A stretch of 64,000 nucleotides of DNA, from the NCBI GenBank assembly GCA_965242695.1, contig CBDESU010000001.1, forward strand, positions 768,001 through 832,000. The letters run 5' to 3'. The translations under genes and the position numbers were made by a program. The DNA comes from Cenarchaeum sp. (GTDB lineage: Archaea; Thermoproteota; Nitrososphaeria; Nitrososphaerales; Nitrosopumilaceae). A model generated the notes under the pieces. That model worked only from the letters and a program-made list of their open reading frames with translations, was not told where the DNA came from and searched no databases. Of this stretch, positions 24,235-58,365 are shown piece by piece. How positions within the stretch are numbered: position 1 is the stretch's first letter; every line of letters starts with the position of its first letter.

Positions 24235-24743
24235 CCGGCAGGCCGCCCGGCATTCGCACCCGCCTTTGGCTGGCGGCATGCGCCGGCAGGCTGCGCCGCA
24301 GGCCGGATCGGACGCCATGTTCCGCAGGCTCCGGACGCGGGCCCGTCGCCCGCCTGCCCGCCCGGCAAATCTGCTAGAATGTCCGCCAATGCGGGATCAG
24401 CTCGGGAGCCGTGGGGATGCCGGACGGCTCTGCTACCGCCCGCCGCCCGCCGCGGCACGGCGCGGTGCGGCGCCGCATCTTGGCTCTAGGACGCCAGCAT
24501 TGGGAGGTGCCCGCCCGCCGGCAGGATCGGCCGCGCGGGCGGAGCTGGAAGGGGCGGCGGCCGCGGCCGGGCGGGCCGCGGGCGACAGCGGCACACGGCA
24601 CCTGCGGCGCACATTCGGGCGTCTGGCGCCAGCCGTGCCCTGGCTGCCCCCGACGCGCGCGCCGCCTGCCAGAATCCGAACGTGCAGACATGCGCCGCGG
24701 CGGGGACAAAAGGCATAAACACGGCCCGCGCGGCCGCGCCGCG

Positions 24744-26141: not shown

Positions 26142-26746
26142 TCATTTTCCTAGATGCGAACGCCTGGCACGCATACCATATGGACTTTTCGATCGTGCCA
26201 AAGGGAGGCGGGCCGCCCGTCAGGGTGCAGAGGCCCGGCAGGGATGGGATCGTCGCCATGGTGGACAGGGCGATAGAGTCGGAGGATATTGTGATCTCAG
26301 ACATGGTTGCCTACGAGGTGCGCGGCAGTACGAAAAGGGCATTCGACTCGGCGGCGCGGCGCGCCGGCTCGCCCGACATGGTGGATCGCAGAGTTGTGCA
26401 GGCCGCGCTGGATGGATTCAACTTGCTGTACGGCCGATTTGGCATACACAACGTCCCGACGTACTTGGGAGCGGTCGAGCGCATGTACATCGATGCGTGG
26501 CTCGACCCGCGGATGGCCGCCGCGGTGGACCGGTGGCGGCGCGTCAAGAAGCGCCACGGGGAGGGGACTGCGCACCCCTCGCTGGATACGCACGGGGCGG
26601 ACTTTGTGATACTCTCGACGGCAGCCGCCCTGGCCGCGCAGGGGGACGAGGTCTGGCTTGTCACGTCCGACTATGACTTTGTGGCGTTTGCCGACATGAT
26701 CTACAGGGTGTTTGGCGTCAGGGTGGTCGACGGCAGCGCCCTGTAG
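26138..26746 (+). CDS. PIN domain ribonuclease, copy 1
   Basis: IFLDANAW, VAYEV, ADFVIL, LVTSDYDF acidic tetrad; 4-bp overlap with upstream gene. Confidence 0.85.
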   Translation: MIIFLDANAWHAYHMDFSIVPKGGGPPVRVQRPGRDGIVAMVDRAIESEDIVISDMVAYEVRGSTKRAFDSAARRAGSPDMVDRRVVQAALDGFNLLYGRFGIHNVPTYLGAVERMYIDAWLDPRMAAAVDRWRRVKKRHGEGTAHPSLDTHGADFVILSTAAALAAQGDEVWLVTSDYDFVAFADMIYRVFGVRVVDGSAL

Positions 26747-26901: not shown

Positions 26902-28296
26902 TTGGCGCAAGAGGTCGAGCAGGAGCGCAGGCCGGGGCCGGGCGGCGGGGGAACAGGTGCCGCCCCGTATGGGCAGGGGCAGGAGCAGGCGGCAAAGGAT
27001 GCGCCCTGCCGGATCGACCAGGACCTGATCGACGAGTACATGTACCTCCCCGTCAAGAAGACCATCCACAGCATGCTGAATGCGTACGACCCGAGGCACG
27101 ATGCGCGGGGCATACGGGACGGCATCGAGCGCGGCGGATACCGCAGGGCCCTCGAGGAGCTCCTGCCAGGCCCGCCACCGCGCCACCCGCGCGGAATGCG
27201 CGTTGCCGACAACCGCGCGCGCATGCTCGAGCGCCTCGGCAGGCACGAAGAGGCCGAGCCGTTGTACCGCGACCTTGCATGCGAGCTGCTGTGGAACCCG
27301 AACTCCCACCTCGACCTGGCAAGGGTGCTCGAGCACCTCGGCCGCCGCAAAGAGTCGGACGAGGCGCTAGCCCGCGCAACCAGGCTCCTTCCAGAATGCC
27401 GCAGGGCCTTCGAGGCCCGGCTGCGGCCGGACCCGCGCCAGCTTGATCCCGCACTGGTTCCGCTCCGCCTGATCATACCAATGTCCGTAATCTCGGCGGC
27501 CGGGTTCGTCCGCTCGAGGGCCGAGCTCTCTGCCATGTCGCGCCTAGTGCAGGCCGAGTGCGGGCTGGACCTGTACCCGCCGTCGGCGTCGCGGCTGCCA
27601 GGCTGCGCGGGGCTGGGAGCCGACATGGAGAGGTTCCACCACCTTGTCGTCGAGGACATCCTCCCGCTGTACCGCGCCGACGACGAGCCGCCGTACTACT
27701 ACGATCTTACTGACCGGGGAATCGAGATGATCGGCAGGCTCGGCGGGCGGCTGGGCGCGGAAGCGGCGGCCCGCATCGCCGCATCGGCGCGCCGCGTGGT
27801 CGGCATCGGCCCGCATGCCGCGCTGGAAGAGGCCTGCAGCGCGCCGGGGCGGGAACACCGCGAGCGGCCCGGCCGAGACGACGAGCTCGCCGCGCTGCGC
27901 GGGACGGCCGAGCGCATAAGGCGCGAGATCGGGAACGGCATCACGTTTGGCGAGGCGCATGCGGCCACGCTGGGAGCCAAGGCCAAGCGCGTACCCGACA
28001 TGCTCTCGCAGGCAAGCGGTGCGCCCGACGGGCAGTGGGCTGTCGCCGCCGCCCTGGGCGGGGACGTGCTCGGCCTGTGCGCGTACGTCGCGTTCGACCA
28101 GAGGCCGCACCCGATGGCAGCCTCGCGCGGCCCCCCGTACCCCGACATGCATGACCAGTATGCGCTGTTTGTCAGGTACTGCGGGGACAGGGGCATGGCT
28201 AGGCCCAGGAAGGGGCCGCTGGCCGCCAGGATGCTCACGCCCGAAGAGATCGAAGAGGCCAACCGGGACATGATCAAGGTGATATCAGAGTCTTGA
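26902..28296 (+). CDS. TPR + winged-helix (Panacea/SocA-like) protein, copy 2
   Basis: Near-identical to copy 1; same promoter motif at 26866-26878. Confidence 0.7.
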   Translation: MAQEVEQERRPGPGGGGTGAAPYGQGQEQAAKDAPCRIDQDLIDEYMYLPVKKTIHSMLNAYDPRHDARGIRDGIERGGYRRALEELLPGPPPRHPRGMRVADNRARMLERLGRHEEAEPLYRDLACELLWNPNSHLDLARVLEHLGRRKESDEALARATRLLPECRRAFEARLRPDPRQLDPALVPLRLIIPMSVISAAGFVRSRAELSAMSRLVQAECGLDLYPPSASRLPGCAGLGADMERFHHLVVEDILPLYRADDEPPYYYDLTDRGIEMIGRLGGRLGAEAAARIAASARRVVGIGPHAALEEACSAPGREHRERPGRDDELAALRGTAERIRREIGNGITFGEAHAATLGAKAKRVPDMLSQASGAPDGQWAVAAALGGDVLGLCAYVAFDQRPHPMAASRGPPYPDMHDQYALFVRYCGDRGMARPRKGPLAARMLTPEEIEEANRDMIKVISES

Positions 28297-28901
28297 TCGT
28301 TTTCCTAGATGCGAACGCCTGGCACGCGTACTCTATGGACTTTCCGGTCGTGCCAAAGGGAGGCGGGCCGCCCGTCAGGGTGCAGAGGCCCGGCAGGGAT
28401 GGGATCGTCGCCATGGTGGACATGGCGATAGAGTCGGAGGATATTGTGATCTCAGACACGGTTGCCGACGAGGTGTTTGACAGCACGGGGAGGGCGTTCA
28501 ACTCGGCGGCCCGACGCGTCAATGCGGAGGCCGACCCCGATGAGGACGCTGTGGTTGATGCATTGGAAAGGTTTGGGAGTCTGTACGACCAATTTGACAT
28601 CCACGATGTCCTGACGTACCTGGGAGCGGTCGAGCGCATGTACATCGACGCGTGGCTCGACCCGCAGATGGCCGAAGCGGTGGACCGGTGGAGGCGCGTC
28701 AAGAAGCGCCACGGGGAAGGGACTGAGCGCCCCTCGCTGGATACGCACGGAGCGGACTTTGTGATACTCTCGACGGCCGCCGCCCTGGCCGCGCAGGGCG
28801 ACGAGGTCTGGCTTGTCACGTACGACTACGACTTTGTGGCGTTTGCCGACATGATCTACAGGGTGTTCGGCGTCCGAGTGGTCGACGGCAGCGCCCTGTA
28901 G
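28293..28901 (+). CDS. PIN domain ribonuclease, copy 2
   Basis: VFLDANAW...ADFVIL...LVTYDYDF. Confidence 0.85.
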   Translation: MIVFLDANAWHAYSMDFPVVPKGGGPPVRVQRPGRDGIVAMVDMAIESEDIVISDTVADEVFDSTGRAFNSAARRVNAEADPDEDAVVDALERFGSLYDQFDIHDVLTYLGAVERMYIDAWLDPQMAEAVDRWRRVKKRHGEGTERPSLDTHGADFVILSTAAALAAQGDEVWLVTYDYDFVAFADMIYRVFGVRVVDGSAL

Positions 28902-31028: not shown

Positions 31029-31874
31029 ATGGCGCATGGCGGCAGTGCGGGCGAGGAGAATGACGTGCCGGACATGCGGGCCGACGGGGCGGGATCGACG
31101 GCGTGGGGCGTGTGGATTGCGGCGGCCGCGGCAAGGTCGTGGACGGCCGAGGCGCACCACCTTGCGGCATGGGAGGCGTGCCGGAATGGGTGGAGTGAGA
31201 TGGCCACGGCGATCGCGGCCGGCCGGGATTCGGCCAAGATCGGATGCGAGGGCGTGGAAAGGGACGGCCGGATGGACGGGGCGGCGCTTGAGAGCGGGGT
31301 CGAGAAGCTGAGGGCGGCCGTGCTGGCCCAGAAGCGCGCAAGGGCCGAGTTTGCCGAGGCTGCCAAGCGTGCCGTGCTGTCGGCCGACGAGTGGGAGAAG
31401 GCGGCCAGCGCGCATGCGATGGCATGCGACTCGGAGAATGAAAAGGCGCTGCGCGGACAGGCGGACACGGCGCGCGGAATCGGGCGCATGGCCGCCAAGT
31501 GGTCCAAGAGGGCCGGCAAGGGTGCCGGCATGGCCAAGGAGGCGCTGCGCAAGTGGGAGGAGTGCGCGGCCGTGCGGCCGAGAGGGGATGTGTGGGTCGA
31601 CGATCGTGCGTCGTGGGTCGACGAGCAGTCGCGCATACACGCCGATGCCGAGTACACCAGGGCAGAGTGGCTTGGCAGGGCGGAGAAGGCCGCCGAGGCC
31701 GTGCGGACGGCGACAGATCACCTGCGGCAGTATGCAGATCTTGCCGAAAAGATTGCGGCATCGGCCGGCCTGCCGGATGCGGCGCCGCCAGACTCCGAGC
31801 GGGCCGTCAAGGCGTGGAGGAGGGCCATGAGGTCGGCAAGGCGGGCGGGTGCAGGGAACCGTCAGGGCGTATGA
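31029..31874 (+). CDS. Ala/Trp-rich helical protein, family A (A6)
   Basis: VWIAAAAARSWTAEAHHLAAWE; closest paralog 45939..46739. Confidence 0.78.
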   Translation: MAHGGSAGEENDVPDMRADGAGSTAWGVWIAAAAARSWTAEAHHLAAWEACRNGWSEMATAIAAGRDSAKIGCEGVERDGRMDGAALESGVEKLRAAVLAQKRARAEFAEAAKRAVLSADEWEKAASAHAMACDSENEKALRGQADTARGIGRMAAKWSKRAGKGAGMAKEALRKWEECAAVRPRGDVWVDDRASWVDEQSRIHADAEYTRAEWLGRAEKAAEAVRTATDHLRQYADLAEKIAASAGLPDAAPPDSERAVKAWRRAMRSARRAGAGNRQGV

Positions 31875-31986: not shown

Positions 31987-32796
31987 ATGGGCGGCAGCGA
32001 AGGATCAGACGCGGCCGCCGTGCTGTGGGACGCGGCCGCGGTCGCAATGGTGTGGGCGGCATCCATACGCGACCATGCGGCATGGATGGAAGTCAGGGGG
32101 GCGTGGGCTACCATGGCAGAGGCTGTCGATGCAATGAGGACCGGAGCCGAGGAGTGCGGGCGGGCAGTAGATGCGCAGGGCATGGTGGACGCGGTCGCAC
32201 TCGGCCGGGCCGGCGAGTCGCTCGGCCGGGCCGGCGCAATGATCGAGCGGGCCGCCGATGCGTTCGGCAGGTCGTCCGAACTGTGCGAGGCCGTTGGAGC
32301 AAGGCAGAAGCGCGCAGGCGAGGCGCACGCGCGGGCGTCGAACATGGAGAACAGCGCGGATGCGTGCAGGATGGCGGCAATGTCGTACGAGCGCGCCGAC
32401 TCGACGGCCAAGATGGTGGCCAAGGTGCGCGCCATTGCGGGAGGGCTGGCGAGGGAGGCCGGGGACATGGCGGCGGAGGCCGCAAGCGAGCATGAGGGGT
32501 CTGGGCGCCGGATGCGGCGCGGCGAACGGAGCGGGCTGGCCGCCGTCCAGGCCGACATGTGGGAGGACACCAAGGACATGCGGGCAAACTCGGCCGAGAT
32601 GCTCCGGCAGTCGTCGGAGGCCGTGAAGGTGGCGGCGCGGATTCGGGCGGTGGCTGGAATGGCGGCCGAGCGGCTGGCGGGAAGGGCGGCCATGGCATGC
32701 AGGGACGGCGCCGCCGACGCGCAAGAGGCCGCTGCGGCATGGAGGGGTGCAGTGGCCGATGCCAACAGGGCGGATGCAGAGGGGGGAGGGAGGTAG
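31987..32796 (+). CDS. Ala/Trp-rich helical protein, family A (A7)
   Basis: LWDAAAVAMVWAASIRDHAAW...ECGRAVDAQG...AVQADMWED. Confidence 0.78.
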   Translation: MGGSEGSDAAAVLWDAAAVAMVWAASIRDHAAWMEVRGAWATMAEAVDAMRTGAEECGRAVDAQGMVDAVALGRAGESLGRAGAMIERAADAFGRSSELCEAVGARQKRAGEAHARASNMENSADACRMAAMSYERADSTAKMVAKVRAIAGGLAREAGDMAAEAASEHEGSGRRMRRGERSGLAAVQADMWEDTKDMRANSAEMLRQSSEAVKVAARIRAVAGMAAERLAGRAAMACRDGAADAQEAAAAWRGAVADANRADAEGGGR

Positions 32797-32893
32797 CGGC
32801 CTCGCCGCGGCCGCGCCCGTGGACTGCACGCGTGCCATGCGCAGCCGGGCATCCGATAGAACGGCATAAAGGCGGCCCGGCGTGCCGCGCGGC

Positions 32894-33739
32894 ATGGGCG
32901 GCGCGAGACCGGATGCGGAGGCGGCCAGCGTCCTGTGGACCGCGGCCGCCGATGCAATGCTATGGACGGCAATGATACGCGAGCACGCATCCTGGACGGA
33001 GCTCAAGGGGGCGTGGGCTGCAAAGTCCGAGGCCGTCGACGCCATGAAGGCCGGCTCTGAGGAGTGCGGCAGTGCCGTCGATGCGCAGGGCGTGGTCGAC
33101 GTCGGCGCGCTCGGCCGGGCCGCCGAGGCCCTGAGGCATGCCGCAGCCACGGCGGGCCGGGCCGCCAAGTCGTTCGACAGGGCGTCCGTTCTCTGCAAGG
33201 CGGCGGGAACAGAACTGAGGCGGGCCGGCGATGCGTACGCGCGGGCGCTCGACAGGGTGCGCGCCGCGGACATGCACGGCATGGCCGCAATGTCGCACGA
33301 CCGCGCCGTCGAGACGGACAGGATGGCGTCAAACGCGCGCGGCATTGCGGCGGGCCTTGCTCACGAGGCCGACGGGATGGCGGCGCTGGCGGCCGGATGG
33401 GCGGGTGCGGGGCAGCGGCGGTGGAGCGGCGACCGCGGCGGACTGGCGGCAGTGCAGGCCGACATGTGGGAGGACGCCAAGGAGATGCGCGCAGGCGCGG
33501 AAGAGATGAAGAGGAGCGCGCAAGAGGCCGAGCGGCTGGCGGTCAAGGTGCGTGGTGTGGCGGCAGGGGCGGCCGAGCGGTCTGCTGCAAGGGCTGCCGC
33601 CGCGGCGCGCGATGGACTTGCCGGACCTGACGCGCCAGAGGCCGCAGAGGCGTGGAGGAAGGCCATGTCCGAGGCCCATGCGGCCGATGACCAGGCCGCC
33701 GGGCGGACGAAGGAGGAGGAGGAGGAGGGGGAAGCGTAG
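32894..33739 (+). CDS. Ala/Trp-rich helical protein, family A (A8)
   Basis: Close paralog of A7; promoter motif 23 nt upstream. Confidence 0.78.
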   Translation: MGGARPDAEAASVLWTAAADAMLWTAMIREHASWTELKGAWAAKSEAVDAMKAGSEECGSAVDAQGVVDVGALGRAAEALRHAAATAGRAAKSFDRASVLCKAAGTELRRAGDAYARALDRVRAADMHGMAAMSHDRAVETDRMASNARGIAAGLAHEADGMAALAAGWAGAGQRRWSGDRGGLAAVQADMWEDAKEMRAGAEEMKRSAQEAERLAVKVRGVAAGAAERSAARAAAAARDGLAGPDAPEAAEAWRKAMSEAHAADDQAAGRTKEEEEEGEA

Positions 33740-35964: not shown

Positions 35965-36732
35965 CGTGGCGCCACATGAGGCCTTGGCGGACGGTCCCGT
36001 ATTCGCCGCGCGCCGGCCGGCTGTATCGCCTCGCCGCCTTGATGGGCATGGACGACTTGAACGCATGGCGGCACCGGCGATCGCCGTCTGCCCCGCCATT
36101 GCCTGCATTAGTGCGGTTGCCATTCTCCATGCCCTGGTTCGGGGCAGAGGCCGAGGCGTCTGAATGGCGACCCGTCAAAAAGTTGCCCTGAGGGTACGAG
36201 CGTACGGGCATGGCCGCGGGCGGCCGTATGGCCTCGTTCGCCGCCGTCGTGCCGCCGGTGGATGCCGCATCCCTTGCGGCCCAGGCCGAGGTCGCCGAGT
36301 GCCTGGCTGTCGAGGCAAGCGGCTGGCAGGCGCGTGGGCGCCAGACGTGGGCAGTCGCGCGGGCACGCGCCGCCAGCGTACGTGGTCGGACTGGAGCGCA
36401 TGATCGCGGCCGGGACGGACAGCGCGCATGCGATGGATGCCTGGGCGGATGCCGTCGGGCAGGCGGCGGCCGTCGGGCAGGCGGCGGCCGGCGAGGCGGT
36501 ACTCGGGGACGCGGAGCGCACCATGGCGGATGCAAGGGCGGCCGCACACGAGGCCATTGCATCGATTCAGGCCGGGCAGCGCGTCGTGGCGACCGACCGG
36601 CAGGTCCCGAGCATTGCCACGGGGAGCAGGCTGGCCCCCGTGCTGTCCGGCGAGGGGACGGAGTGCTATTGACGGGCACGGGGCAGCCCGACACGTTTAT
36701 GACTTCTAGGGGGCCGCCTGCGGCGACTGGAT

Positions 36733-36987
36733 ATGGGCATCCTGACCATCTGCGTCTTTGTCGTCGGCGCCGTGATCGGGCATCTTTATGTCACGTCCCA
36801 TATCCTGGGCTATTTTGGGATCATAACAGATGCCGTCGACTGTGGTTCTATAGACGATCCGGCGTGGAGCGACCAGTGCGGCCAAGGAAACGCGATTACG
36901 CGCATGCTCATCCCCATCATCGTTCCGGTGTTGACGGGCGCGATACTTGCATCCGTCGCTCGCATGCTTACCGGGCGGAGACTATGA
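36733..36987 (+). CDS. Small two-TM protein with a Cys-pair loop
   Basis: TM-(DCGSIDDPAWSDQC)-TM; paralog at 51226. Confidence 0.7.
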   Translation: MGILTICVFVVGAVIGHLYVTSHILGYFGIITDAVDCGSIDDPAWSDQCGQGNAITRMLIPIIVPVLTGAILASVARMLTGRRL

Positions 36988-37077
36988 GCAAGGCAAGGCG
37001 ACCGACAGGGGTGGCGCACGGCGCTGTAGCGCGGGCGGACATGGCGGGCGCCGCTCTGATACACTAGGCAAGCTACG

Positions 37078-37800
37078 ATGTGGTTGACACCCGAAGACGC
37101 CGCGCCGAGGCAGTTTGGACTCTACGTTGAGACCGTGCTGGACGACCGGGAAACATGCCACGCGATCAGGGATGTCGACAGACCTGCTCGCCGAGTACGG
37201 CGAGGTCGGCGTCGACCCCGGGTTCAAGCCGGCCAAGTACAGGGTAGCAAGGCCGACTGCTACGGGGCGCAGGGATGAGGCCTACACGGTAAACGTGTAC
37301 CCGTCGGGCAAGGTCGTGTGCCGGGGGGCAAAGTCTGTCGAGAGGGCCCGCACGGACGTGAGGATGGTTCTGCATAGGCTCGGCGTGCCGGAGGGGGGAA
37401 CCACGGCGATGCGGAGGGGGCCGCAGCCGTGCGGTACGTGGTGATGTCGGGATGCATCTTTGGCGAATGACGTGCACAGGGCCATACCAAAGCTCAGGGA
37501 GAGGTACGAGGTGACGCTCGACTCGGAGGTGTTCTCGGGGTATGTGGGGTCGAGGGGTTTGGAGGGGAAGAGGATGGAGGCGTCTCCGTCCAGGTATTCG
37601 CGCCTGATATGGGCGATGCGGATACGGCGTGCGAAGGCGGAAGGATGCCGCTGCTGTGCAGGGGGCCGACCGTGCGGGAGGTGAGCAGGGTCGTCGGCGA
37701 CATGTACAGGGCGATTGTACAGTCCGACCGCAGGCCGGGCGGGGAGGGAGCCGGTGATGCGGCGGACCGCAGGGACGACATGCGGCCGCCGAGCGTATAA
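37078..37800 (+). pseudogene. Highly divergent TATA-binding-protein-like gene with four frameshifts
   Basis: Stitched segments VNVYPSGKVVCRGAKSVERA / VRYVVMSG / TLDSEVFSG / VSVQVF...LLCRGPTVREV follow the two-repeat TBP pattern in order. Confidence 0.65.
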
Positions 37801-37824
37801 GAAGCGCCACCTGAACGGTCCAGT

Positions 37825-38712
37825 ATGGCGGGCGGACCGCAGGCGCGGCCCGACAGTAGCAGCAGGAGGAAGAGCATGGCGGACGACAATGCGGCAATGT
37901 ACGCGTACGCGGCGGCCGTAAAGTCACTGTCGCGCCTGGTCGAGAGGTCGGAAGTAGCCGTGGATGCATGGTCGACACTGGCCAAGTCGACGTTCGACAC
38001 CGGCCTGCGCAAGGCCGCCAACGCCGCATCGGAAAGCAGCGCCGAGCGAAAGGGGGCCTGCGAGACCCTGCTGGAAGGGTGCCGGCTTGACGGCGATGGC
38101 CTGTACGAGGTGTTTCCGGGCATGTGGACCGGCGAGATTGCCGCGGGGGCCGAGGGCATGGCAGCCCTGGCCAGCCGCGCAGCGGCCAGGTGGTCTGCGA
38201 GGGGCGCGCTGCTCTCGGCGTCGACCGAGCCGCCCGTGCTCGCAGAGATGTCGGTCTCGAAGGCCTGGCGGGGGTTTGCCAAAAAGGTGGCGGCCGCGGA
38301 GAGGGCGGCGGAGGGAACCGAACTCGAGGCAAGGCCGGTCGACGAGCTGGCGGCCGCGGCGGCGCGCGGGGCAGAGCGCTTGGCGCGGGCGAGGGGTCCA
38401 TTTAGCGTAGAGGAGGTTGACGCCGCTGCCGGCGTGGACGGCCATGGGGGCGGTACGGGCGGGTTGGCTGATGTGGTTGCGGCGACGGCAGGGAGGCGGG
38501 CGGCCGCTGATGCGAGGGATCGTGCGGCAAGGGAGGCGGCGGAGTCGAAGGCGTTGTTGCGGGACGCTGTAGACGTGTGGATGGAGGCGTCTGCGGAATG
38601 GGCAAGGGCGCGCGACAGGGCCGCGAGAGAGGGCGACAAGGAGGTCGCCAGCATGGCGGATGAGCAGGCCGCATACGCCGGCAAGAATGCCGCTCGCCTG
38701 CGGACTGCCTAG
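37825..38712 (+). CDS. Ala-rich helical protein, family D (D1)
   Basis: AAVKSLSRLV...CRLD...PGMW...AAARW; TATAAG 24 nt upstream. Confidence 0.78.
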   Translation: MAGGPQARPDSSSRRKSMADDNAAMYAYAAAVKSLSRLVERSEVAVDAWSTLAKSTFDTGLRKAANAASESSAERKGACETLLEGCRLDGDGLYEVFPGMWTGEIAAGAEGMAALASRAAARWSARGALLSASTEPPVLAEMSVSKAWRGFAKKVAAAERAAEGTELEARPVDELAAAAARGAERLARARGPFSVEEVDAAAGVDGHGGGTGGLADVVAATAGRRAAADARDRAAREAAESKALLRDAVDVWMEASAEWARARDRAAREGDKEVASMADEQAAYAGKNAARLRTA

Positions 38713-38782
38713 CATCGCTCCGCGTCCAGGCCGGCCGCCATACGCCGCGAGCGATTAAAAATCGCAGTGCGGGCGGCCATGT

Positions 38783-39661
38783 ATGGCTGGAAGGACGTCG
38801 GCGGGGCGGCGCGGGCGCCGGCAGCAGAGGAAGAGGCCGGCACACGACAGGGCGGTGGCTAGGCACAGCGCGGCCGCAAAGTCGCTGATCCGCCTGGTCA
38901 GGATGGCTAGAACCGCCGCATCCATGTGGTCGCACATGGACGAGCTTGCGATTGACGAGGCAGGCCGCGAGGCGGCGGTAAAAATGTCGACGGGCAGCGC
39001 AGACCGCAGGGAGATGGCCGAGGGCCTGCTGAAGGCGTGTTGCCTTGATGTCACGGGCAGCTACGAGATGGTTCCGGGCGTGTGGCGGGACGATATTGCG
39101 GCGGGGGCCGAGGGCATGGCGGCCCTGGCCAACATGGCCGCGGCGAGGTGGTGCGCGAACGGGGGCATGGCGAGCGCGTCGACGGCGAGCGTTGTGTTTG
39201 CCGAGCTGTCGGCATCGGGCGCATGGACGGACTTTGCCGCAAAGGTGGCCGCCGCCGAGCGCGCGGCGCTCGGAACCGCGCTGGATGCAAGGCCGGTGGC
39301 CGAGCGGGCCGCGGCGGCGGCAAGGCACGCCGAACGATCCGTGCCGACGCTGCCGCGGGAGGAGAGCGTGGGCGGCGGGGCGGCAGCGGCTGTTGGCGCA
39401 ATGGGGACGGGGGCGTCGAGCGGGCGGGCCGCAGAGGCTGGCAGGCGGGCCGCGGCCGCCGTGCGGGATCTATCGGTCGGGGCCGTCGAGAGGGCCGCAA
39501 TGGCGCGGCGCGATGCGGCCGGCGTGTGGGCGGAATCTTCCGCACTGTGGTCGAGGGTGCGCAGGGATGCCGCAAGGGAGGGCGATGCGGCCGCTGAGGC
39601 TCTGGCCAGCGTGCAGGCAAGGACGGCTAAAGAGCATGCGACGCGCCTGAGGACTGCCTAG
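38783..39661 (+). CDS. Ala-rich helical protein, family D (D2)
   Basis: AAKSLIRLV...PGVWR...ANMAAARW; TTAAAA 23 nt upstream. Confidence 0.78.
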   Translation: MAGRTSAGRRGRRQQRKRPAHDRAVARHSAAAKSLIRLVRMARTAASMWSHMDELAIDEAGREAAVKMSTGSADRREMAEGLLKACCLDVTGSYEMVPGVWRDDIAAGAEGMAALANMAAARWCANGGMASASTASVVFAELSASGAWTDFAAKVAAAERAALGTALDARPVAERAAAAARHAERSVPTLPREESVGGGAAAAVGAMGTGASSGRAAEAGRRAAAAVRDLSVGAVERAAMARRDAAGVWAESSALWSRVRRDAAREGDAAAEALASVQARTAKEHATRLRTA

Positions 39662-39839
39662 CCGGATTGCCGCGGCGGCTGATTGGCGGCCAGCTTGGGA
39701 GCTGGCGGCAGGAGCGGCGGTGTCGCGGTTATGGCGCCTGCCGGTACGACGATCTTGGCCCGGCCGCGCCTTATATACGGCCCTGATATTGCCGCCAATG
39801 AATGATCCACGTGATAACGCGGACGAGGCGCGCCGCCGG

Positions 39840-39980
39840 ATGCCGCTCGGTCGAGTGCCGCGCAGACGCCGCGCGGCGTACCCGGCGCAGGATCGGCGCC
39901 GATCTAGGGAAGCGCGCCATTGCGGCGGCGCACGCGAGGGCGCGGCGCTCCGCCCGCAGGGGCGGGGAGGCCGGGTGGTG
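39840..39980 (+). pseudogene. C-terminal remnant of a zinc-finger family copy
   Basis: SVECRADAARRTRRRIGADLGKRAIAAAHARAR matches the family tail. Confidence 0.55.
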
Positions 39981-40028
39981 CAGGCGCATCCGCCCTCGGC
40001 CCGCCCACTCGGGCACATGCGGCCGCCC

Positions 40029-40041
40029 GCCAGCCTTATAG
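40029..40041 (+). promoter_or_regulatory. Zinc-finger-family promoter motif GCCA(G/A)(C/T)CTTATA(G/T), first copy
   Basis: Further copies at 41401, 42194, 44880, 59485 (each exactly 24 nt before ATG); mutated copy at 60308. Confidence 0.85.
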
Positions 40042-40064
40042 CCGGCAACCCAAGACGCGCCGCG

Positions 40065-40760
40065 ATGTCGGATCGCGCCACCTGCAGGGTATGCGGACGC
40101 GACTTTGCGCCGTACGGCCGCCGCCGCCGCGTCTACTGCAAGAAGTGCGCCGCAAAGGCCGACAAGGCGATCGTCCTGGACCCGGTCGTGAAATGCAGGG
40201 AATGCGGCCGCAAGTTTTCCGCGCCCAGCCGATCGTTCCGCCACTGCTCCGATGCCTGCCGCGCAGAAGGCGCGCGGCGCTACAACCGCGAGTACATGCG
40301 CAGGTACCTGACCGACCCCCAGAAGCGCGCCACGGCCCTGGCGCGCAACAGGGCATCGGCGGCGGCGCGCGCGGCCCGCAAGAGGGGCGGGAGGCCGCCG
40401 CAGAAGCAGGCGCTGCCCCGCGCGGACCCGAACGCCGAGCCGTCCGTGTGCGGGCTGTGCGGCCGCACGTTCGTGCAGTACGGCCGCGGCGTCCACGCCC
40501 ACTGCAAGCGGTGCACGGCCAGGGCCGATCGGGAGGTCGACAAGCCGCCGCACACAAAGTGCAAGGAATGCGGCAAGGCGCTCACCACGACCAGCCGCCG
40601 AGTCCGCTACTGCTCAAAGGCGTGCAGCGCCGAGGGCCTGCGGCGCAGCCGCCGCGAGAGCAGGCGCAGGATCAAGGCCGATCCGGAGAAGGGCGCCCTG
40701 GCGGCGGCGCACAGGCGGGCGCGGAATGCCGCCCGCGGGGGCAAGGATGCGGGAGGGTGA
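40065..40760 (+). CDS. Four-zinc-finger basic protein (Z1)
   Basis: Two copies of [CxxCG..F...YCxxC-linker-CxxCG..F...YCSxxC-basic helix DPEKRA]. Confidence 0.8.
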   Translation: MSDRATCRVCGRDFAPYGRRRRVYCKKCAAKADKAIVLDPVVKCRECGRKFSAPSRSFRHCSDACRAEGARRYNREYMRRYLTDPQKRATALARNRASAAARAARKRGGRPPQKQALPRADPNAEPSVCGLCGRTFVQYGRGVHAHCKRCTARADREVDKPPHTKCKECGKALTTTSRRVRYCSKACSAEGLRRSRRESRRRIKADPEKGALAAAHRRARNAARGGKDAGG

Positions 40761-41144: not shown

Positions 41145-41436
41145 GAGAAGGCATACTGTCCATCGAGGCCAGGCTCGGGGATGGCGCGGGCGGCCGGGCT
41201 GTGCTATCCGGCGAGGACCTGTCGATCCTCGGCGGCGTATCCGATGCCCTTGACAGCGTGTGCGCGTCCCTGTTCAGCGAGATGCGCGGGCGATGCGCTC
41301 CCGCTGCGTGGGATGCGCTATCCGCGAGCGGATCGGCAGGGCCGAGTAGCCAGTGGCCGAAATCCCGGGCGGCCGGCGGCGCGCCCCGCAGGGCCGGCTA
41401 GCCAGCCTTATATCCGTCAACTCGATGCGCGGCGCG

Positions 41437-42135
41437 ATGCCGGGGCCCGCCGCATGCCTGCTGTGCGGGCGCATCTTTGAGCGGCATGGACGCGGCGGCC
41501 TGCGCGCGTACTGCAAGCGGTGCACCGCCAGGGCCGACAGGGAGATCGCCGTGAGGCCTGTCGTGCAATGCGGGGAGTGCGGCAGCGAGTTTTCCGCGCC
41601 CCGCCGATCGTTCCGCTACTGCTCCGATGCCTGCCGCACCGAGGCCGCGCGCCGCCGCAACCTCGAGCACCAGCGCAAGTACATGGCCGACCCCGAGAAG
41701 CGCGCCATAACCGCGGCGCGGGCGAGGGCCGCAGCGGCGGCCCGCGCGGCCCGCAAGGGGGGAGGGGGGCCGCCGCCGCGGCGGCGGCCGCCTCGCGCGG
41801 ACTCGAGCGCCGAGCCGTCCGTATGCCGGCTGTGCGGGCGCAGCTTTGGGCAGCACGGCCGCGGCCTGCGCGCGTACTGCAAGCGGTGCACCGCCAGGGC
41901 CGACAGGGAGGCGGGCAGGACGCTGCGCGCAAAGTGCAAGGAGTGCGGCAAGGCGTTTTCCACTGCCCGCCGCTCCGTACGCTACTGCTCGGACGGGTGC
42001 AGCGCCGAGGGCCTGCGGCGCAGCTACCGCGAGAGCAAGCGCAGGATCAAGGCCGATCCGGAAAAGCGCGCCCTGGCCGCGGCGCAGGGGAGGGCATGGA
42101 GCGCGGCCCACAGGGGCAGGAAGGCGGGAGGGTGA
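41437..42135 (+). CDS. Four-zinc-finger basic protein (Z2)
   Basis: Same architecture; promoter motif 24 nt upstream. Confidence 0.8.
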   Translation: MPGPAACLLCGRIFERHGRGGLRAYCKRCTARADREIAVRPVVQCGECGSEFSAPRRSFRYCSDACRTEAARRRNLEHQRKYMADPEKRAITAARARAAAAARAARKGGGGPPPRRRPPRADSSAEPSVCRLCGRSFGQHGRGLRAYCKRCTARADREAGRTLRAKCKECGKAFSTARRSVRYCSDGCSAEGLRRSYRESKRRIKADPEKRALAAAQGRAWSAAHRGRKAGG

Positions 42136-44083: not shown

Positions 44084-44656
44084 TCACGGTTCGGCCGTAT
44101 TGGCCGGCAGGGGGCGGGCGTCGGCCCTGATCTTGTCCTGTATATCAATATAGAACACGTCATCCTCGCCATTGCCAGCTGGTATGTACCTGAAGCCAAG
44201 GTTGCGATAGAATCGCATGGTGTCGGGATCGTCGAGGGGGTTGAGCATGACGATACGGCATCCGATCCTCTCCGACAGGCGCATCGCCTCTTCGATCGAC
44301 CACAGCAAAAGCCTGGTGGCCACCCCCTGCCGCTCGTGGTCCTTGTCCGTGGCAAGGTAGCCGACGAGGAGTGCGGGGATGTTGCCGTAGCCCATCCCCT
44401 GCAGGGCAGGGTCGCGGCCGGGGCGCAGGTGCGCCGCCGCGACAGAGATGTAGCCGAGCGTGGCCCCCTCGTCGCCAATATACCGCCATGTTCGGTTCAG
44501 GCCCTCTTCCATGTCACTATAGGAAGTGACCCTGTAGTAGTCGTTGAACTCGGGATTTCGGCAATTAAAGTTTGGGTCGGGATCAGTGCCGGCGCGCACC
44601 AGAGAAATCTCGGGACTCTTTCGCTGCTCGCCTGCGGCGCCTTTCAACCTCTTCAT
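44084..44656 (-). CDS. GNAT acetyltransferase toxin (AtaT/TacT-like)
   Basis: FNC.N..FNDY, IPALLVGYLAT, ERQGVATRLL, IGCRIVML, RFYRNLGF. Confidence 0.85.
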   Translation of the reverse strand: MKRLKGAAGEQRKSPEISLVRAGTDPDPNFNCRNPEFNDYYRVTSYSDMEEGLNRTWRYIGDEGATLGYISVAAAHLRPGRDPALQGMGYGNIPALLVGYLATDKDHERQGVATRLLLWSIEEAMRLSERIGCRIVMLNPLDDPDTMRFYRNLGFRYIPAGNGEDDVFYIDIQDKIRADARPLPANTAEP

Positions 44657-44798
44657 GATCGATCTCCTTCATGTACTTGGCCTGCTCCCTGGCCATCCGG
44701 AGGGTGCGCCTCATCTCGGGCGTAGGGCCCTCCCTCAGCTGCTCTATGACCATTGCCCACTGCCGATCGCTGAGCGGCTTGACCTCCCTCATCATCAA
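44583..44798 (-). CDS. Putative antitoxin of the GNAT toxin
   Basis: LSDRQWAMVIEQLREGPTPEM resembles the TacA/DUF1778 C-terminal region; TATATA 23 nt upstream. Confidence 0.6.
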   Translation of the reverse strand: MMMREVKPLSDRQWAMVIEQLREGPTPEMRRTLRMAREQAKYMKEIDHEEVERRRRRAAKESRDFSGARRH

Positions 44799-44915
44799 AA
44801 AGTGGCGGATACCGGTTGGATATATACCCTTCGCGTAGGCGTGAGAAAAGTCGGTGCGTCCCAGGCGGTCGGCCGGCCCGCCAGTCTTATATCGATGAGA
44901 TCGGCACCAGGAGCG

Positions 44916-45614
44916 ATGTCGGGGCCGGCTGCCGTATGCATCCTATGCGGCGCAAGCTTTGCGCCGTACGGCCGCGGCGCCCGCACTTTTTGCAGGCGGT
45001 GCGCGGCAAGGGCCGACAGGGAGGCCGGCAGGGCGCTGCACATGGACTGCAAGGCGTGCGGCAAGAGGTTTTCAGCGCCGCGCCGATCCGCCCGCTACTG
45101 CTCGGACGAGTGCCGCGCCGAGGGCGCGCGCCGCCGCAACCGCGAGCACCAGCGCAAGTACGTGGCCGACCCCGAGAAGCGCGCCATAACGGCGGCGCGA
45201 AACAGGGCCATCGCGGCGGCCCGCAGGGCCCGCGACAGGGGCGGGAGGCCGCCGCAGCGGCAGGCGCCGCCGCGAGCGGACCCTGACGCCGAGCCGTCCG
45301 TATGCAGGCTGTGCGGGCGCACATTTGCGCAGTACGGCCGCAGTAACCGGCACGCCTACTGCAGGCGGTGCACGGCAAGGGCCGACAGGGAGGTGGGCAG
45401 GACGTTGCGCTCAAAGTGCGCGGGGTGCGGCGGCAGGTTTTCCACGACCAGCCTCGCCGTGCGCTACTGCTCGGACGAGTGCCGCGCAGACGGCGCGCTG
45501 CGCAGCCAGCGCAAGAGCGATCTCAGGCTCAAGGCCGATCCCGGGAGGCGCGCCCTCGCGGAGGCGCAGAAAAGGGCGCTGAGGACCGCCCGCATGGGCG
45601 GGGAGGAGCGGTGA
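44916..45614 (+). CDS. Four-zinc-finger basic protein (Z5)
   Basis: Same architecture; promoter motif 24 nt upstream. Confidence 0.8.
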   Translation: MSGPAAVCILCGASFAPYGRGARTFCRRCAARADREAGRALHMDCKACGKRFSAPRRSARYCSDECRAEGARRRNREHQRKYVADPEKRAITAARNRAIAAARRARDRGGRPPQRQAPPRADPDAEPSVCRLCGRTFAQYGRSNRHAYCRRCTARADREVGRTLRSKCAGCGGRFSTTSLAVRYCSDECRADGALRSQRKSDLRLKADPGRRALAEAQKRALRTARMGGEER

Positions 45615-45938: not shown

Positions 45939-46739
45939 GTGGAATTCGGCGCGGACGACACGGATACGGCCTATGTGTGGACGGCCGCGGCCGCGGCAAG
46001 GGCGTGGGCCGCGTCGGCGCACCACCTTGCCGCATGGGAGTCGTGGCAGATCGCATGGATGGCCATGGCCGAGTCGTCCGAGGCCGGCCGGAACGCGGCC
46101 GCCGCGGGGGTCGAGGCCGTCGGCAGGGGCGGCCGGATGGACGGGGCGGCGCTCGGGCGCGGCGCATCGGGTCTCGAGGAGGCCGTGCAGGCGCACCTGC
46201 GCGCAGAGGCCGCGTTTGGCAGGTCGGCCGCGCAGGCCAGATCGTCGACTGCGGAGTGGGAGATTGCGGCCGGCGCGCACTCCATGGCCGGCGATGCGGA
46301 GAATGCGGCGATGGTGCGCAGGCATGCCGACAACTCGCGCGCAGTCGCTGATGCGGCGGGCAAGTGGGCGACGCGGGCCGGCCGCGCCGCGGACACCGCC
46401 AAAGGGGCGATGCGCAAGTGGAGGGAGTTTGAGGCCGCGCGGTCGGGTGGCGGGGCATGGGGAGGCGACCGGGCCGCATGGATCGACGCGCAGGCCCGGA
46501 TACGCGACGAAGCCGAGCGCAGCAGGAAAAAGTGGCTGGGCAGGGCCAAGACGGCCAAGGAGTCGGTGCGGACGGCGGCCGAGCACGTGCAGCGGTACGC
46601 GGACATAGTCGAGGAGGCCTCTGCGGCGATCGACCGTTCGGATGCGCCCCTGCCGGCGGCGCGCGATGCCATGGACGCGTGGAAGGCGGCCGTGGAGGCG
46701 GCCCGGCAGGCGGTCGCCGCGTGGCGCGCGCGCGAGTGA
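45939..46739 (+). CDS. Ala/Trp-rich helical protein, family A (A11, paralog of A6)
   Basis: VWTAAAAARAWAASAHHLAAWE; GGCATAAAT 24 nt upstream. Confidence 0.78.
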   Translation: MEFGADDTDTAYVWTAAAAARAWAASAHHLAAWESWQIAWMAMAESSEAGRNAAAAGVEAVGRGGRMDGAALGRGASGLEEAVQAHLRAEAAFGRSAAQARSSTAEWEIAAGAHSMAGDAENAAMVRRHADNSRAVADAAGKWATRAGRAADTAKGAMRKWREFEAARSGGGAWGGDRAAWIDAQARIRDEAERSRKKWLGRAKTAKESVRTAAEHVQRYADIVEEASAAIDRSDAPLPAARDAMDAWKAAVEAARQAVAAWRARE

Positions 46740-57596: not shown

Positions 57597-57833
57597 GCCG
57601 CCGCGGGGTGGCCCCTCCCCTGTTTTCCATGGCTGGTGCGCCGTGGGTACAAGGCCGGTTTTTTTTTGCGGGCGACGGGTAGCCCTGCGCCGGACACGCC
57701 CTGCGACCCGGCGGGCCGCCGCCCCGTTGCCAATCGCAGATCGACCACACATCTCCGCGGATGCTCGGCGGCGGGGCGGGTCGTGCGATCTGCATGCGGC
57801 GCGGCCGGCCGACGCCGTTGAAAGCTGCCGGCG

Positions 57834-58290
57834 GGCGCAGGGACGAGAACGGCACCGCAAGCGTGTACCCGTCGGGCAAGGTCGCATGCTTGGGGGCAAA
57901 GTAGGTCGAGATGGCGGGCACGACGTGCACAGGCCGCACCGCCGCTGCGGGAGCGGTACGAGGTGGCGCCAGGCTCGGGGGTGTTCTCGGGGTGCCCTGT
58001 GGGGTCGAGGGGAGTAGTGGGACGGGGGATGGCGGCGGGGACGGCGAGGATGCCGCGTATCCGTCCACGTGTTTGCGCCGGGCGGCGCGGGAACGGGCGG
58101 GGGGGGGGGGGGGCGTGAGCAGGAGGACGCCGCCTCTGTGCAGGGGGCCGACCGTAGACGACATGCGCGCAGTCGTCGGCGACGCGTACAGGATGGCTAT
58201 AGGGGCCAGCGAAGGGCCGGAAACGGGATGCGGCGGCGCCCGAATCGACGATGCGGCAGGCGGCCGACCCCGTGCGCCGGTTCCCGCATA
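57834..58290 (+). pseudogene. Second, more decayed TBP-like copy
   Basis: ASVYPSGKVACLGAK*VE (TAG 57902), LRERYEV..SGVFSG, VSVHVFAP, LCRGPTVDDMRAVVGDAYR; internal deletion relative to copy 1. Confidence 0.65.
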
Positions 58291-58365
58291 ATGCATGGGC
58301 ATACAGGGCCCTGCCAGAGCCGGCAGTCTGCGATCGTATAAAAAACGCCGCAAGCGCGGCCCCGC

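What the first reader, a model, noticed from the sequence alone, without database searches (positions are those of the whole stretch)
37078..37800. Cryptic, highly divergent TBP-like gene split over four frameshifts
Seen: alternating frames give YTVNVYPSGKVVCRGAKSVERARTDVRMVLHRL, then VRYVVMSGCI, then DVHRAIPKL..EVTLDSEVFSGYV, then VSVQVFAP..LLCRGPTVREVSRVVGDMYRAI. Known: TBP repeats read LIFxSGKxVxTGAKS, IQNxVxS and YEPExFPGL, in this order. Several DNA-contacting residues look altered (F to Y, N to Y, T to R), and there is an insertion in repeat 2. Inference: the ancestral protein may have had altered sequence specificity. Its stop codon TAA lies in the TATA box of D1. The frameshifts could be decay or long-read indel errors.
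Basis: partly seen in the sequence, partly recalled or inferred. Interest (0 to 1): 0.7.

Follow-up and report, generated by a model that had tools for sequence, protein, structure and literature searches.

The report
Decayed copy of a divergent TBP gene
This stretch is a dead, frameshifted copy of an unusual, fast-evolving relative of the TATA-binding protein that survives intact in a few related sponge-associated and marine ammonia-oxidising archaea, where it sits beside DNA-transfer-type genes.

Summary
All four peptide strings sit in the stated frames. ORF 37115-37444 passes Pfam TBP on its own (26.5 bits, cut-off 22.9).

The genome is a 3.9-Mb, 68% GC archaeon of the Cenarchaeum genus group with two normal TBP genes elsewhere.

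Read through with X at the breaks, the stretch scores 154 bits against a 20-member family profile over positions 17-181 of 184. It is 132/207 identical to an intact 273-aa protein, P0021. The closest intact relative without a long insert, P0015, folds as a TBP saddle.

The breaks are real. Contigs from two studies are identical to the window. Two other strains carry an extra C after 37569 that removes one frameshift but keep the middle two. A second, more decayed copy lies at 57794-58291.

The family is small: six intact members among 401 genomes of the taxonomic family sampled, and 20 of 1.84 billion representatives at E<=1e-30. Where named it is called hypothetical. It lies next to VirB4-like and secretion-ATPase genes.

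Verdict: a real pseudogene of a little-known TBP paralog, of moderate interest.

The parts
37078..37179 (+). Probable N-terminal piece (frame F1): first strand and start of first helix of repeat 1. It begins at an ATG.
   Evidence: GC3 is highest in F1 at 37045-37135. The motif order L-Y-V-E-T-V ... C ... D-V-D matches family N-termini. Support is weak: +6.6 bits, pairwise z<=2.1.
37180..37181 (+). Frameshift J1 (F1 to F2). Probable 2-nt loss.
   Evidence: The frame change is needed to join 37078-37179 to 37181-37402. A minor contig of run X6 has CC put in behind 37180, which would restore continuity, but that contig differs upstream of 37167.
37181..37402 (+). Rest of TBP repeat 1 (frame F2), including the VNVYPSGKVVCRGAKS strand-turn-strand and helix 2.
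   Evidence: Pfam PF00352 at 26.5 bits on ORF 37115-37444. Family profile positions 20-95. 59% identity to P0021 by tblastn.
37403..37428 (+). Frameshift J2 (F2 to F1), somewhere in this interval. If F2 is read on, it hits TGA at 37442-37444.
   Evidence: Frameshift-aware alignments place it at 37402/37405 (P0021), 37422/37423 (P0015) or 37426/37429 (family profile). It is unchanged in the contigs of all four runs laid.
37405..37464 (+). Linker and first strand of repeat 2 (frame F1): AAAVRYVVMSGCIFG.
   Evidence: It matches AAAVKYVVMSGCIFG of the intact P0021 and the family motif V-M-S-G.
37465..37468 (+). Frameshift J3 (F1 to F2). If F1 is read on, it hits TGA at 37468-37470.
   Evidence: Intact relatives read straight through here (CIFGGYDVYKAIP in P0021). 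It is unchanged in runs X1, X4 and X6. X7 has T>C at 37468 but no indel.
37466..37569 (+). Helix 1' and following strands of repeat 2 (frame F2): DVHRAIPKLRERYEVTLDSEVFSGYV...
   Evidence: Family profile positions 109-135. Near-identical to P0021 KERYEVTLDSEVFSGYF. Strains X6 and X7 carry CTT behind 37542, giving SGYF as in the intact relatives.
37569..37570 (+). Frameshift J4 (F2 to F1): a 1-nt deletion in this lineage.
   Evidence: Contigs of X6 (depth 14.7) and X7 (depth 11.5) have a C put in behind 37569, which joins F2 to F1 without a break. X1 and X4 lack it, like the window.
37570..37800 (+). End of repeat 2 (frame F1): VSVQVFAP, a variable insert, LLCRGPTV, the last helix, a low-complexity tail and the stop TAA at 37798-37800.
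   Evidence: Family profile positions 136-177. 68.5% identity to the C-terminus of P0024 by tblastn. Translation.
37793..37803 (+). A/T-rich promoter-like box (CGTATAAGAAG) of the next gene. It contains the TAA stop.
   Evidence: It lies about 30 nt before the ATG at 37825. The paralogs at 38783 and 58366 have GATTAAAAAT and GTATAAAAAA at the same distance. Its function is inferred.
37825..38712 (+). It has paralogs at 38783-39661 and 58366-59241.
57794..58291 (+). Second, more decayed copy of the same gene. It has TAG in place of the Ser codon of GAKS, about 116 nt missing between repeat 1 and helix 1', further frame changes and a long G run (counted by eye as about 16 at roughly 58099-58114).
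   Evidence: It is followed by the same kinds of neighbours (a D-like gene at 58366, then a zinc-finger-repeat gene).

Best explanation
Window 37078-37800 is a pseudogene. Its ancestor was a two-repeat protein of roughly 200-240 residues in a fast-evolving, little-known paralog family of the archaeal TATA-binding protein.

In this lineage the gene has suffered four frame changes, at about 37180, 37403-37428, 37465-37468 and 37569/37570. It has also lost one codon, after 37542. No frame now runs more than 109 codons, and each repeat is separated from its own first strand.

A duplicate of the same module lies 20 kb away (TBP-like gene, D-like gene, zinc-finger-repeat gene). It has decayed further and in different ways. 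The genome has no intact member of the family and relies on its two canonical TBP genes.

Shown: homology, the fold of the intact relative, the reality of the breaks, their different ages, and the second copy.

Inferred: the intact family acts as an element-specific TBP. This rests on three things. It keeps the aromatic residues of the DNA-kinking pairs. It keeps an acidic D-x-E-x-F/M stirrup where canonical TBP has E-P-E-x-F for TFB binding. And it lies in DNA-transfer or mobile-element-like gene clusters in relatives. On this reading the host lost it once it was no longer needed.
For: Sequence membership:
- Pfam TBP hit above cut-off on ORF 37115-37444.
- The read-through with X at the breaks scores 154.2 bits against the 20-member family profile over positions 17-181 of 184. 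F2 alone scores 93.3.
- 132 of 207 aligned residues are identical to the intact P0021, across three frame changes.

Fold and family:
- The AlphaFold model of P0015 has pLDDT 86 and pTM 0.77.
- In Foldseek against PDB, 58 matches have E<=0.001. All 40 rows shown down to rank 43 are TBP chains or complexes, with TM 0.75-0.82 normalised to the target for most, and lower for fusion chains and large complexes.
- The family profile finds 35 PDB sequences at E<=0.01, all TBP, the best being 1pcz at 9.3e-18.
- 20 of 20 family members hit PF00352 at E<=0.01.

The breaks are real:
- Contigs of X1 (study P1) and X4 (study P2) show 0 differences over 36900-38000.
- X6 (P3) and X7 (P4) have +C after 37569 and +CTT after 37542, but no indel at J2 or J3.

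Decay:
- Substitutions between copy 1 and copy 2 fall 30/30/28 on codon positions 1/2/3.
- Copy 2 has a TAG, a deletion of about 116 nt and a long G run.

No intact copy in this genome:
- A six-frame profile search of the whole genome finds only the two window copies and the two canonical TBPs.
Against: - J1 is statistically weak, so the count may be three frameshifts plus an N-terminal truncation.
- GC3 is still about 0.8-0.88 in the ancestral frames.
- Among the 29 listed X7 substitutions up to 37725, 15 fall on third positions, 9 on first and 5 on second. Only 40 of 69 differences were listed. This could mean the decay is recent or that some constraint persists.
- J2 and J3 are shared by strains about 6% apart. 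A product made from the pieces, for instance ORF 37172-37444, cannot be excluded.
- No RNA run was available.
- Everything about the intact family's function rests on gene neighbourhood and on residue patterns whose canonical roles I recall rather than tested.
Confidence: 0.85

Rival explanations
1. The frameshifts are sequencing or assembly errors, for instance long-read indels in G-rich runs, and the gene is intact in the organism.
For: The region is G-rich with several G4-G6 runs near J2 and J4. The assembly is in two large contigs, which suggests long reads.
Against: Contigs built independently from runs of two different studies (X1, X4) are identical to the window across all four breaks. 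X6, from a third study, is identical apart from two insertions and keeps J1-J3. J4 is not in a homopolymer: the extra C in other strains sits between AA and GAGG. J3 lies in GAATGAC. Neighbouring genes of 292-346 codons are unbroken. X1 may be the data set the assembly came from, so it is not independent. X4, X6 and X7 are.
Confidence: 0.03
2. The locus is still functional in pieces or by recoding. Either half-proteins (ORF 37172-37444 holding most of repeat 1, and a repeat-2 ORF that is continuous in the X6/X7 strains) associate, or ribosomes shift frame.
For: J2 and J3 are shared by strains about 6% apart. The frame changes alternate +1/-1, so only two frames are used. GC3 remains high. There is a mild excess of third-position changes against X7.
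Against: Each piece would lack the first strand of its repeat, which lies in the other frame. In-frame stops sit at 37442-37444 and 37468-37470. I saw no heptameric slippery motif at the junctions on reading the sequence; this was not searched formally. The second copy carries different lesions. One break is polymorphic between strains, which is what neutral decay predicts.
Confidence: 0.08
3. The resemblance to TBP is chance or low-complexity similarity in a GC-rich sequence where all frames are open.
For: At 70% GC, long spurious ORFs abound: 195 ORFs of 150 aa or more in 64 kb.
Against: Pfam hit above the curated cut-off. 154 bits against the family profile. 64% identity to an intact database protein across both repeats. 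TBP fold of that subfamily.
Confidence: 0.01

Closest known systems
Canonical archaeal TATA-binding protein (Pfam PF00352; e.g. PDB 1pcz, 1ais, 1mp9)
   Same: - Two tandem repeats with the strand-helix-strands-helix order.
- Predicted saddle fold: Foldseek probability 1.00, TM 0.75-0.82.
- Repeat 1 keeps the E-N-V first strand, the S-G-K-x-V-C-x-G-A-K/N-S turn and aromatic residues at both kink positions.
- Repeat 2 keeps an acidic D-x-E-x-F/M stretch where canonical TBPs have E-P-E-x-F.
   Different: - Only 16-21% identity to solved TBPs.
- It fails every NCBIfam TBP model by a wide margin, e.g. 18.5 bits against a cut-off of 288.
- Repeat 2 is degenerate. GAKS becomes G-P-D/T. The Asn of the first strand becomes Y/Q/H/R. 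The Thr before the Gly becomes R/S/M/N. The helix-1'-to-strand region is shorter.
- Terminal branches are 0.3-1.6 changes per site, against 0-0.3 for the canonical TBPs of the same taxonomic family (quick tree).
- The window's copy is broken.
Cenarchaeum symbiosum A hypothetical protein CENSYa_0675 and its relatives (this TBP-like family)
   Same: It belongs to the same family. The profile built from it and G019 finds the window at E=2.7e-15, whereas canonical TBPs score about 1e-6. It has the same two-repeat layout.
   Different: About 34% identity over repeat 1. It is intact, 180 aa from the GTG start that I chose, and annotated as 159 aa in the source record. It sits beside a VirB4/TraG-like ATPase, a secretion ATPase and an actin-like protein. 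The window's copies sit in a repeat-rich island next to D-like and zinc-finger-repeat genes.
Paralogous general transcription factors tied to pilus, DNA-transfer or mobile-element loci: TFIIB/TFB homologs in archaeal type IV pilus loci and thaumarchaeal integrative-conjugative elements, and TFB3 of Sulfolobales
   Same: A spare copy of a basal initiation factor encoded next to secretion ATPases, VirB4-like ATPases and pilin-like genes. In print this is described for TFIIB homologs (PMC4858521 and PMC6563490, passages read). TFB3 is described as co-regulating Ced, Ups and HerA (PMC9905601, passage read).
   Different: Those are TFB/TFIIB paralogs. In the three papers plus PMC13705601 and PMC3597702, the terms 'TBP' or 'TATA' (or, in PMC3597702, the thaumarchaeal names) had 0 occurrences in this context. 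No regulatory role has been tested for the TBP-like family.
Multiple TBP paralogs of haloarchaea, and eukaryotic TBP-related factors (recalled, plus the introduction passage of PMC3597702)
   Same: Lineage-specific duplication of TBP with divergence of DNA-contact residues.
   Different: As far as I recall, those paralogs remain close enough to be recognised by standard TBP models. This family is annotated as hypothetical, is patchily distributed, and is associated with mobile-element-like genes.

Membership tests
TBP (PF00352) superfamily | Significant match to the TBP repeat profile | tested here: met
   ORF 37115-37444: E=5.9e-6, 26.5 bits against a cut-off of 22.9, profile positions 39-81 of 85. 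20 of 20 intact family members match at E<=0.01. The repeat-2 pieces of the window alone give no Pfam hit.
TBP (PF00352) superfamily | Two tandem repeats forming the saddle fold | tested here: met
   For the intact relative P0015: model pLDDT 86, with secondary structure strand-helix-strands-helix twice. Foldseek hits are TBP chains over about 190 columns. For the window, only by alignment of the read-through to family profile positions 17-181 of 184. The stitched sequence itself was not folded.
TBP (PF00352) superfamily | Uninterrupted reading frame | tested here: not met
   There are three firm frame changes and one probable one, with stops at 37276-37278 (F1), 37442-37444 (F2), 37468-37470 (F1) and 37682-37684 (F2). 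Independent contigs confirm them.
Canonical archaeal TBP (NCBIfam PRK00394 models) | Score above the curated cut-off of a TBP equivalog or subfamily model | tested here: not met
   P0015 scores 15-18.5 bits against cut-offs of 181-288. Family members match the models only at E of 1e-6 to 2e-11.
Canonical archaeal TBP | Conserved DNA-contact set: two Asn, two Thr and four Phe. The identity of these residues is recalled from the yeast and archaeal TBP literature, not tested. | tested here: inconclusive
   From the alignment. The repeat 1 Asn is kept in the family and is T in the window. Aromatic F/Y is kept at both repeat 1 kink positions. In repeat 2, F/L/M and F/H/Y are found at the kink positions. 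The repeat 2 Asn is replaced by Y/Q/H/R. Both Thr positions are variable and are R in the window.
Canonical archaeal TBP | Binds TATA DNA and recruits TFB | not testable with these tools
No complex prediction was run.
Divergent TBP-like family (CENSYa_0675 type) | Closer to the family profile than canonical TBPs are, over both repeats in one stretch | tested here: met
   The window scores E=2.7e-15, against at best 8.3e-7 for canonical TBPs of the same taxonomic family. The read-through aligns in one stretch at 154 bits. In the six-frame search of the genome, the canonical TBPs match as two stretches.

The most novel reading that the evidence does not exclude
The intact family may be a previously undescribed class of element-borne TBP. 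On this reading it is a fast-evolving, asymmetric TBP paralog carried by conjugative or DNA-transfer-type modules of ammonia-oxidising archaea. Those modules hold a VirB4/TraG-like ATPase, a secretion ATPase, a ParM-like actin, pilin-like proteins and restriction-modification genes. The protein would redirect the host RNA polymerase to the element's own promoters, or act as a TBP decoy. It would be the TBP counterpart of the TFIIB homologs already noted in such elements. The window would then record the loss of this factor after the element was domesticated and broken up in a large-genome sponge symbiont.
Probability: 0.3. Interest if true: 0.6.

Novelty: new variant of a known kind. Interest (0 to 1): 0.4.

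Why it matters
The pseudogene itself changes little. It shows gene decay in a repeat-rich island of an unusually large (3.9 Mb) and GC-rich symbiont genome.

Its value is as a pointer to a small family of very divergent TBP paralogs:
- 20 clusters at E<=1e-30 among 1.84 billion representatives.
- Standard annotation calls them hypothetical.
- They keep the TBP fold but have a degenerate second repeat.
- In relatives they sit in DNA-transfer or mobile-element-like clusters.

If these proteins bind other promoter sequences or other TFBs, they would be a natural experiment in how TBP asymmetry and specificity evolve. They would also be a case of a mobile element bringing its own TBP.

Tried and rejected
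- Context of the closest intact relatives (P0015, P0021, P0024) could not be obtained. The search for related loci found no relative in genome contigs with P0015 or in metagenome contigs with alignment A5. Two degenerate DNA-pattern scans found 0 matches. Whether D-like and zinc-finger neighbours accompany intact copies is therefore unknown.
- The listing of cluster members gave no names for 10 family proteins.
- Same-genus genomes G002-G004 gave no protein match at E<=1e-5. A DNA search with 36700-39700 gave only short weak hits in the D-gene part, and none in the TBP-like part.
- Profiles of the three small conserved neighbours seen in relatives (clusters c1, c3, c5) found nothing in this genome at E<=0.1.
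- The VirB4-like and secretion-ATPase homologs of this genome lie at C1:298-312 kb, with no TBP-like remnant there.
- No RNA holder was listed among the sequencing runs, so expression is untested.
- The earlier-findings tool was not open.
- The careful tree search did not finish. The tree cited is the quick one.
It was repeated after more than twenty other calls.
- Considered and rejected: pyrrolysine reading of the TAG in copy 2. The codon replaces a conserved Ser of GAKS, and copy 2 has many other lesions.

Full report
**Setting.** The window is G000:C1:768001-832000 of a 3.89-Mb genome in two contigs, 67-68% GC. It is an archaeon. It has a class I lysyl-tRNA synthetase and two ordinary two-repeat TBP genes elsewhere, at C1:698344-698856 and C1:1731857-1732372. 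One same-genus relative (G001) carries a protein identical to 'hypothetical protein CENSYa_0675 [Cenarchaeum symbiosum A]'. The organism therefore belongs to the Cenarchaeum genus group of ammonia-oxidising archaea. The runs that hold this DNA and carry a plain organism label are sponge metagenomes; the others bear coded labels.

**Observation.** Translating the three forward frames of 37078-37802 gives all four quoted peptide strings in the frames claimed, and the TAA at 37798-37800. I call the frame starting at 37078 F1 and the one starting at 37079 F2.
- ORF 37115-37444 (F2) passes Pfam TBP by itself: E=5.9e-6, 26.5 bits against a cut-off of 22.9. The other pieces give no Pfam hit alone.
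- A plot of G+C at third codon positions is highest in F1 at 37045-37135, in F2 at 37150-37615 and in F1 again at 37630-37750. This independently shows that coding signal changes frame.

**Intact relatives.** A search of 40 relatives with the 109-aa piece found two open frames of 187-190 codons in G019 and G001. These matched better than this genome's own canonical TBPs did. Both are complete two-repeat proteins.

A profile of the two, run over 401 genomes of the taxonomic family, matched 43 at E<=1e-5. This tally includes the unpublished G273 and G107, which gave only weak hits. There is a sharp gap in the scores:
- G019 and G001, the two genomes the profile was built from, score 2.1e-105 and 4.6e-98. 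G387, G059, G057 and G017 score 2.0e-38 to 2.1e-26, all with no stops.
- This window scores 2.7e-15 with one TGA inside.
- Everything else scores 8.3e-7 or worse, matching repeat 1 only.

A profile of the six intact proteins, run against 1.84 billion representative proteins, found 511 at E<=0.001, 32 at E<=1e-10 and 20 at E<=1e-30. The family members match in one stretch over the whole profile. Most rows below about 1e-15 match in two stretches, as canonical TBPs do.

Three of these proteins are close to the window's gene:
- P0021 (273 aa) is intact.
- P0015 (221 aa) is intact.
- P0024 (156 aa) has repeat 1 joined to the end of repeat 2.

None of ten family proteins looked up carries a name.

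**Anatomy of the breaks.** I wrote a protein-to-DNA alignment that allows frame changes.

Against the six-member profile it gives the following layout. The score is 79.7 bits even when each frame change costs 10 bits.

| Frame | Window | Profile positions |
|---|---|---|
| F2 | 37172-37426 | 20-95 |
| F1 | 37429-37464 | 96-108 |
| F2 | 37466-37546 | 109-135 |
| F1 | 37549-37719 | 136-177 |

Against P0021 it gives 132 identical of 207 aligned residues, with the same three frame changes. P0021 reads straight through the places where the window breaks: AAAVKYVVMSGCIFGGYDVYKAIPMLKERYEVTLDSEVFSGYF.

Read through with X at each break, the stretch scores 154.2 bits against the 20-member profile over positions 17-181 of 184. 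F2 alone scores 93.3 bits.

The fourth break, near 37180, is much weaker.
- The F1 peptide has L-Y-V-E-T-V ... C ... D-V-D in roughly the family's order.
- It adds only about 6.6 bits.
- Its pairwise scores are at most 2.1 standard deviations above shuffles.

**Are the breaks real?** Logan contigs of four runs from four studies were laid on 36900-38000.
- X1 and X4 each cover the whole stretch in one contig with no difference. X1 may be the source of the assembly. X4 is from another study.
- X6's contigs are identical except for CTT put in behind 37542 and C put in behind 37569.
- X7's contig is a variant about 94% identical (43 other letters over 37246-38000). It has the same two insertions and a 9-nt deletion at 37606. 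Those 13 gap letters account for all its gaps.

The extra C joins F2 to F1 exactly, so J4 is a 1-nt deletion particular to the window's lineage. The CTT restores the Phe of S-G-Y-F seen in P0021 and P0015. J2 and J3 are unchanged in all four runs, so they are older than the split between these strains. A minor X6 contig (depth 5.4) has CC put in behind 37180, which would mend J1. It is unlike the window upstream of 37167, so it may be another locus.

Sequencing error is therefore excluded for J2-J4, and the lesions differ in age.

**Second copy.** The genome holds one more copy, at window 57794-58291. It has several lesions:
- TAG where GAKS has its Ser codon.
- About 116 nt missing between repeat 1 and helix 1'.
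- Further frame changes.
- A long G run, counted by eye as about 16.

It is followed, like copy 1, by a D-like gene (58366-59241) and a zinc-finger-repeat gene.

Substitutions between the two copies fall 30/30/28 on codon positions 1/2/3 of the ancestral frames. That shows no sign of purifying selection. A six-frame profile search of the whole genome finds no other member.

**What the family is.**
- The family profile finds 35 PDB sequences at E<=0.01. All are TBPs or TBP fusions, the best being Pyrococcus woesei 1pcz at 9.3e-18.
- AlphaFold2 on P0015 with the 20-row alignment gives pLDDT 86 and pTM 0.77, with strand-helix-strands-helix twice.
- Foldseek against PDB gives 58 matches at E<=0.001. 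All 40 rows shown down to rank 43 are TBP chains or complexes, typically with TM 0.75-0.82 normalised to the target, rmsd 2.5-3.3 A over about 190 columns and 16-21% identity.
- All 20 members hit PF00352. All fall far below the cut-offs of NCBI's TBP naming models, for example 18.5 bits against 288. This explains the 'hypothetical' label.
- In a quick maximum-likelihood tree of 66 rows, the 21 family rows lie on one side of a branch (SH-aLRT 93). Their terminal branches are 0.3-1.6. The ten clustered canonical TBPs of the same taxonomic family, including this genome's two, have branches of 0-0.3; an eleventh row, L026, falls outside that cluster on a branch of 1.22. The careful search did not finish.

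**Residues.** The roles of the canonical residues are recalled from the TBP literature, not tested here. In the alignment with canonical TBPs:
- The family keeps E-N-V in the first strand. The window has E-T-V.
- Aromatic F/Y is kept at both kink positions of repeat 1.
- F/L/M and F/H/Y are found at the kink positions of repeat 2.
- The Asn of repeat 2 becomes Y/Q/H/R.
- Both Thr positions vary, and are R in the window.
- GAKS of repeat 2 becomes G-P-D/T.
- D-S/A-E-V-F/M stands where canonical TBPs have E-P-E-x-F, the TFB-binding stirrup.

The insert in the repeat-2 hairpin is shared, at varying length, with P0015 and P0021.

**Neighbourhood in relatives.** I compared plus or minus 8 kb around the six intact genes. 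The TBP-like gene recurs with:
- a multi-pass membrane protein of about 135 aa (5 of 6 loci);
- a protein of about 200 aa with a short basic leader and a hydrophobic N-terminal helix, pilin-like by inspection (5 of 6);
- a small two-helix membrane protein (3 of 6);
- an ATPase of 634-648 aa with AAA_10, TraG P-loop and HerA hits (3 of 6);
- a T2SSE secretion ATPase (2 of 6);
- an actin/ParM-like protein (2 of 6).

Nearby lie restriction-modification genes, transposases, a PD-(D/E)XK nuclease and DprA. This looks like a DNA-transfer or mobile-element module.

Published work (passages read) reports TFIIB homologs in archaeal type IV pilus loci (PMC4858521). It reports them in all thaumarchaeal integrative-conjugative elements identified in that study (PMC6563490). 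It describes TFB3 as co-regulator of the Ced, Ups and HerA operons in Sulfolobales (PMC9905601). 'TBP' and 'TATA' occur 0 times in PMC6563490, PMC4858521, PMC13705601 and PMC9905601. PMC3597702, on the TBP-domain superfamily, never mentions Cenarchaeum, Thaumarchaeota or Nitrosopumilus. My searches turned up no description of this family. Supplementary tables of those papers were not read and may list it.

**Neighbourhood in the window.** This genome's VirB4-like and secretion-ATPase homologs lie at C1:298-312 kb, far from the window. The window's copies sit in an island of expanded families:
- D-like genes;
- zinc-finger-repeat genes, with dozens of tblastn hits on C1;
- an Ala/Trp-rich family of about 270-290 aa;
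- TPR proteins, Fic, an IrrE-type peptidase and an IS66 transposase.

The D genes carry A/T-rich boxes about 30 nt before their start codons: GTATAAGAA, GATTAAAAAT and GTATAAAAAA. That the box is a promoter is an inference.

**Verdict.** This is a genuine, independently confirmed pseudogene of a divergent TBP paralog, with a second and older wreck 20 kb away. The mechanism proposed for the living family, an element-specific TBP, is inferred from fold, residue patterns and gene neighbourhood only.

Noticed in passing
window 14884-15726, 16847-17668, 31029-31874, 31987-32796, 32882-33739, 45939-46739, 49251-50060, 50068-50880: A multi-copy family of Ala/Trp-rich proteins of about 270-290 aa with no Pfam hit. 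Most copies have the same upstream box, GAACGGCATAAAGGCGG, about 25-35 nt before the start codon.
   Followed up: partly
window 39720-40760, 41353-42135, 44544-45614 and many sites on C1: A zinc-finger-repeat protein family (CxxC...CxxC units, weak Ecl1/NinG/C1 hits). It is greatly expanded, with more than 25 tblastn hits on C1 and a few on C2.
   Followed up: partly
window 24411-26746 and 26902-28901: A tandem duplicate of a two-gene module: a TPR-containing protein followed by a 202-aa protein whose two copies start almost identically (MIIFLDANAWHAY / MIVFLDANAWHAY).
   Followed up: no
window about 58099-58114: A long G run (counted by eye as about 16) inside the second decayed TBP-like copy.
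   Followed up: no
G000:C2:517113-517196 (-) and C2:515371-515551 (-): A short stretch 64% identical at protein level to the N-terminal F1 piece of the pseudogene. About 1.6 kb away is a relative of the small membrane protein encoded at window 36733-36987. This may be a third fragment of the module.
   Followed up: partly
whole genome G000 against relatives: At 3.9 Mb and 67-68% GC, this genome is about twice the size of most relatives in its taxonomic family (about 1-2 Mb). It is far more GC-rich than the loci fetched from them (33-69%).
   Followed up: no
window 10358-11746 (-), 13678-14757 (-), 54375-57227 (-): A Fic/DOC protein, an IrrE/M78 peptidase-domain protein and an IS66-family transposase lie in the same window.
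   Followed up: no
L054 (G017) 13258-14021: In a relative, an MvaI/BcnI-type restriction endonuclease is split into two adjacent ORFs (Pfam positions 3-111 and 126-227). It may be a broken gene.
   Followed up: no
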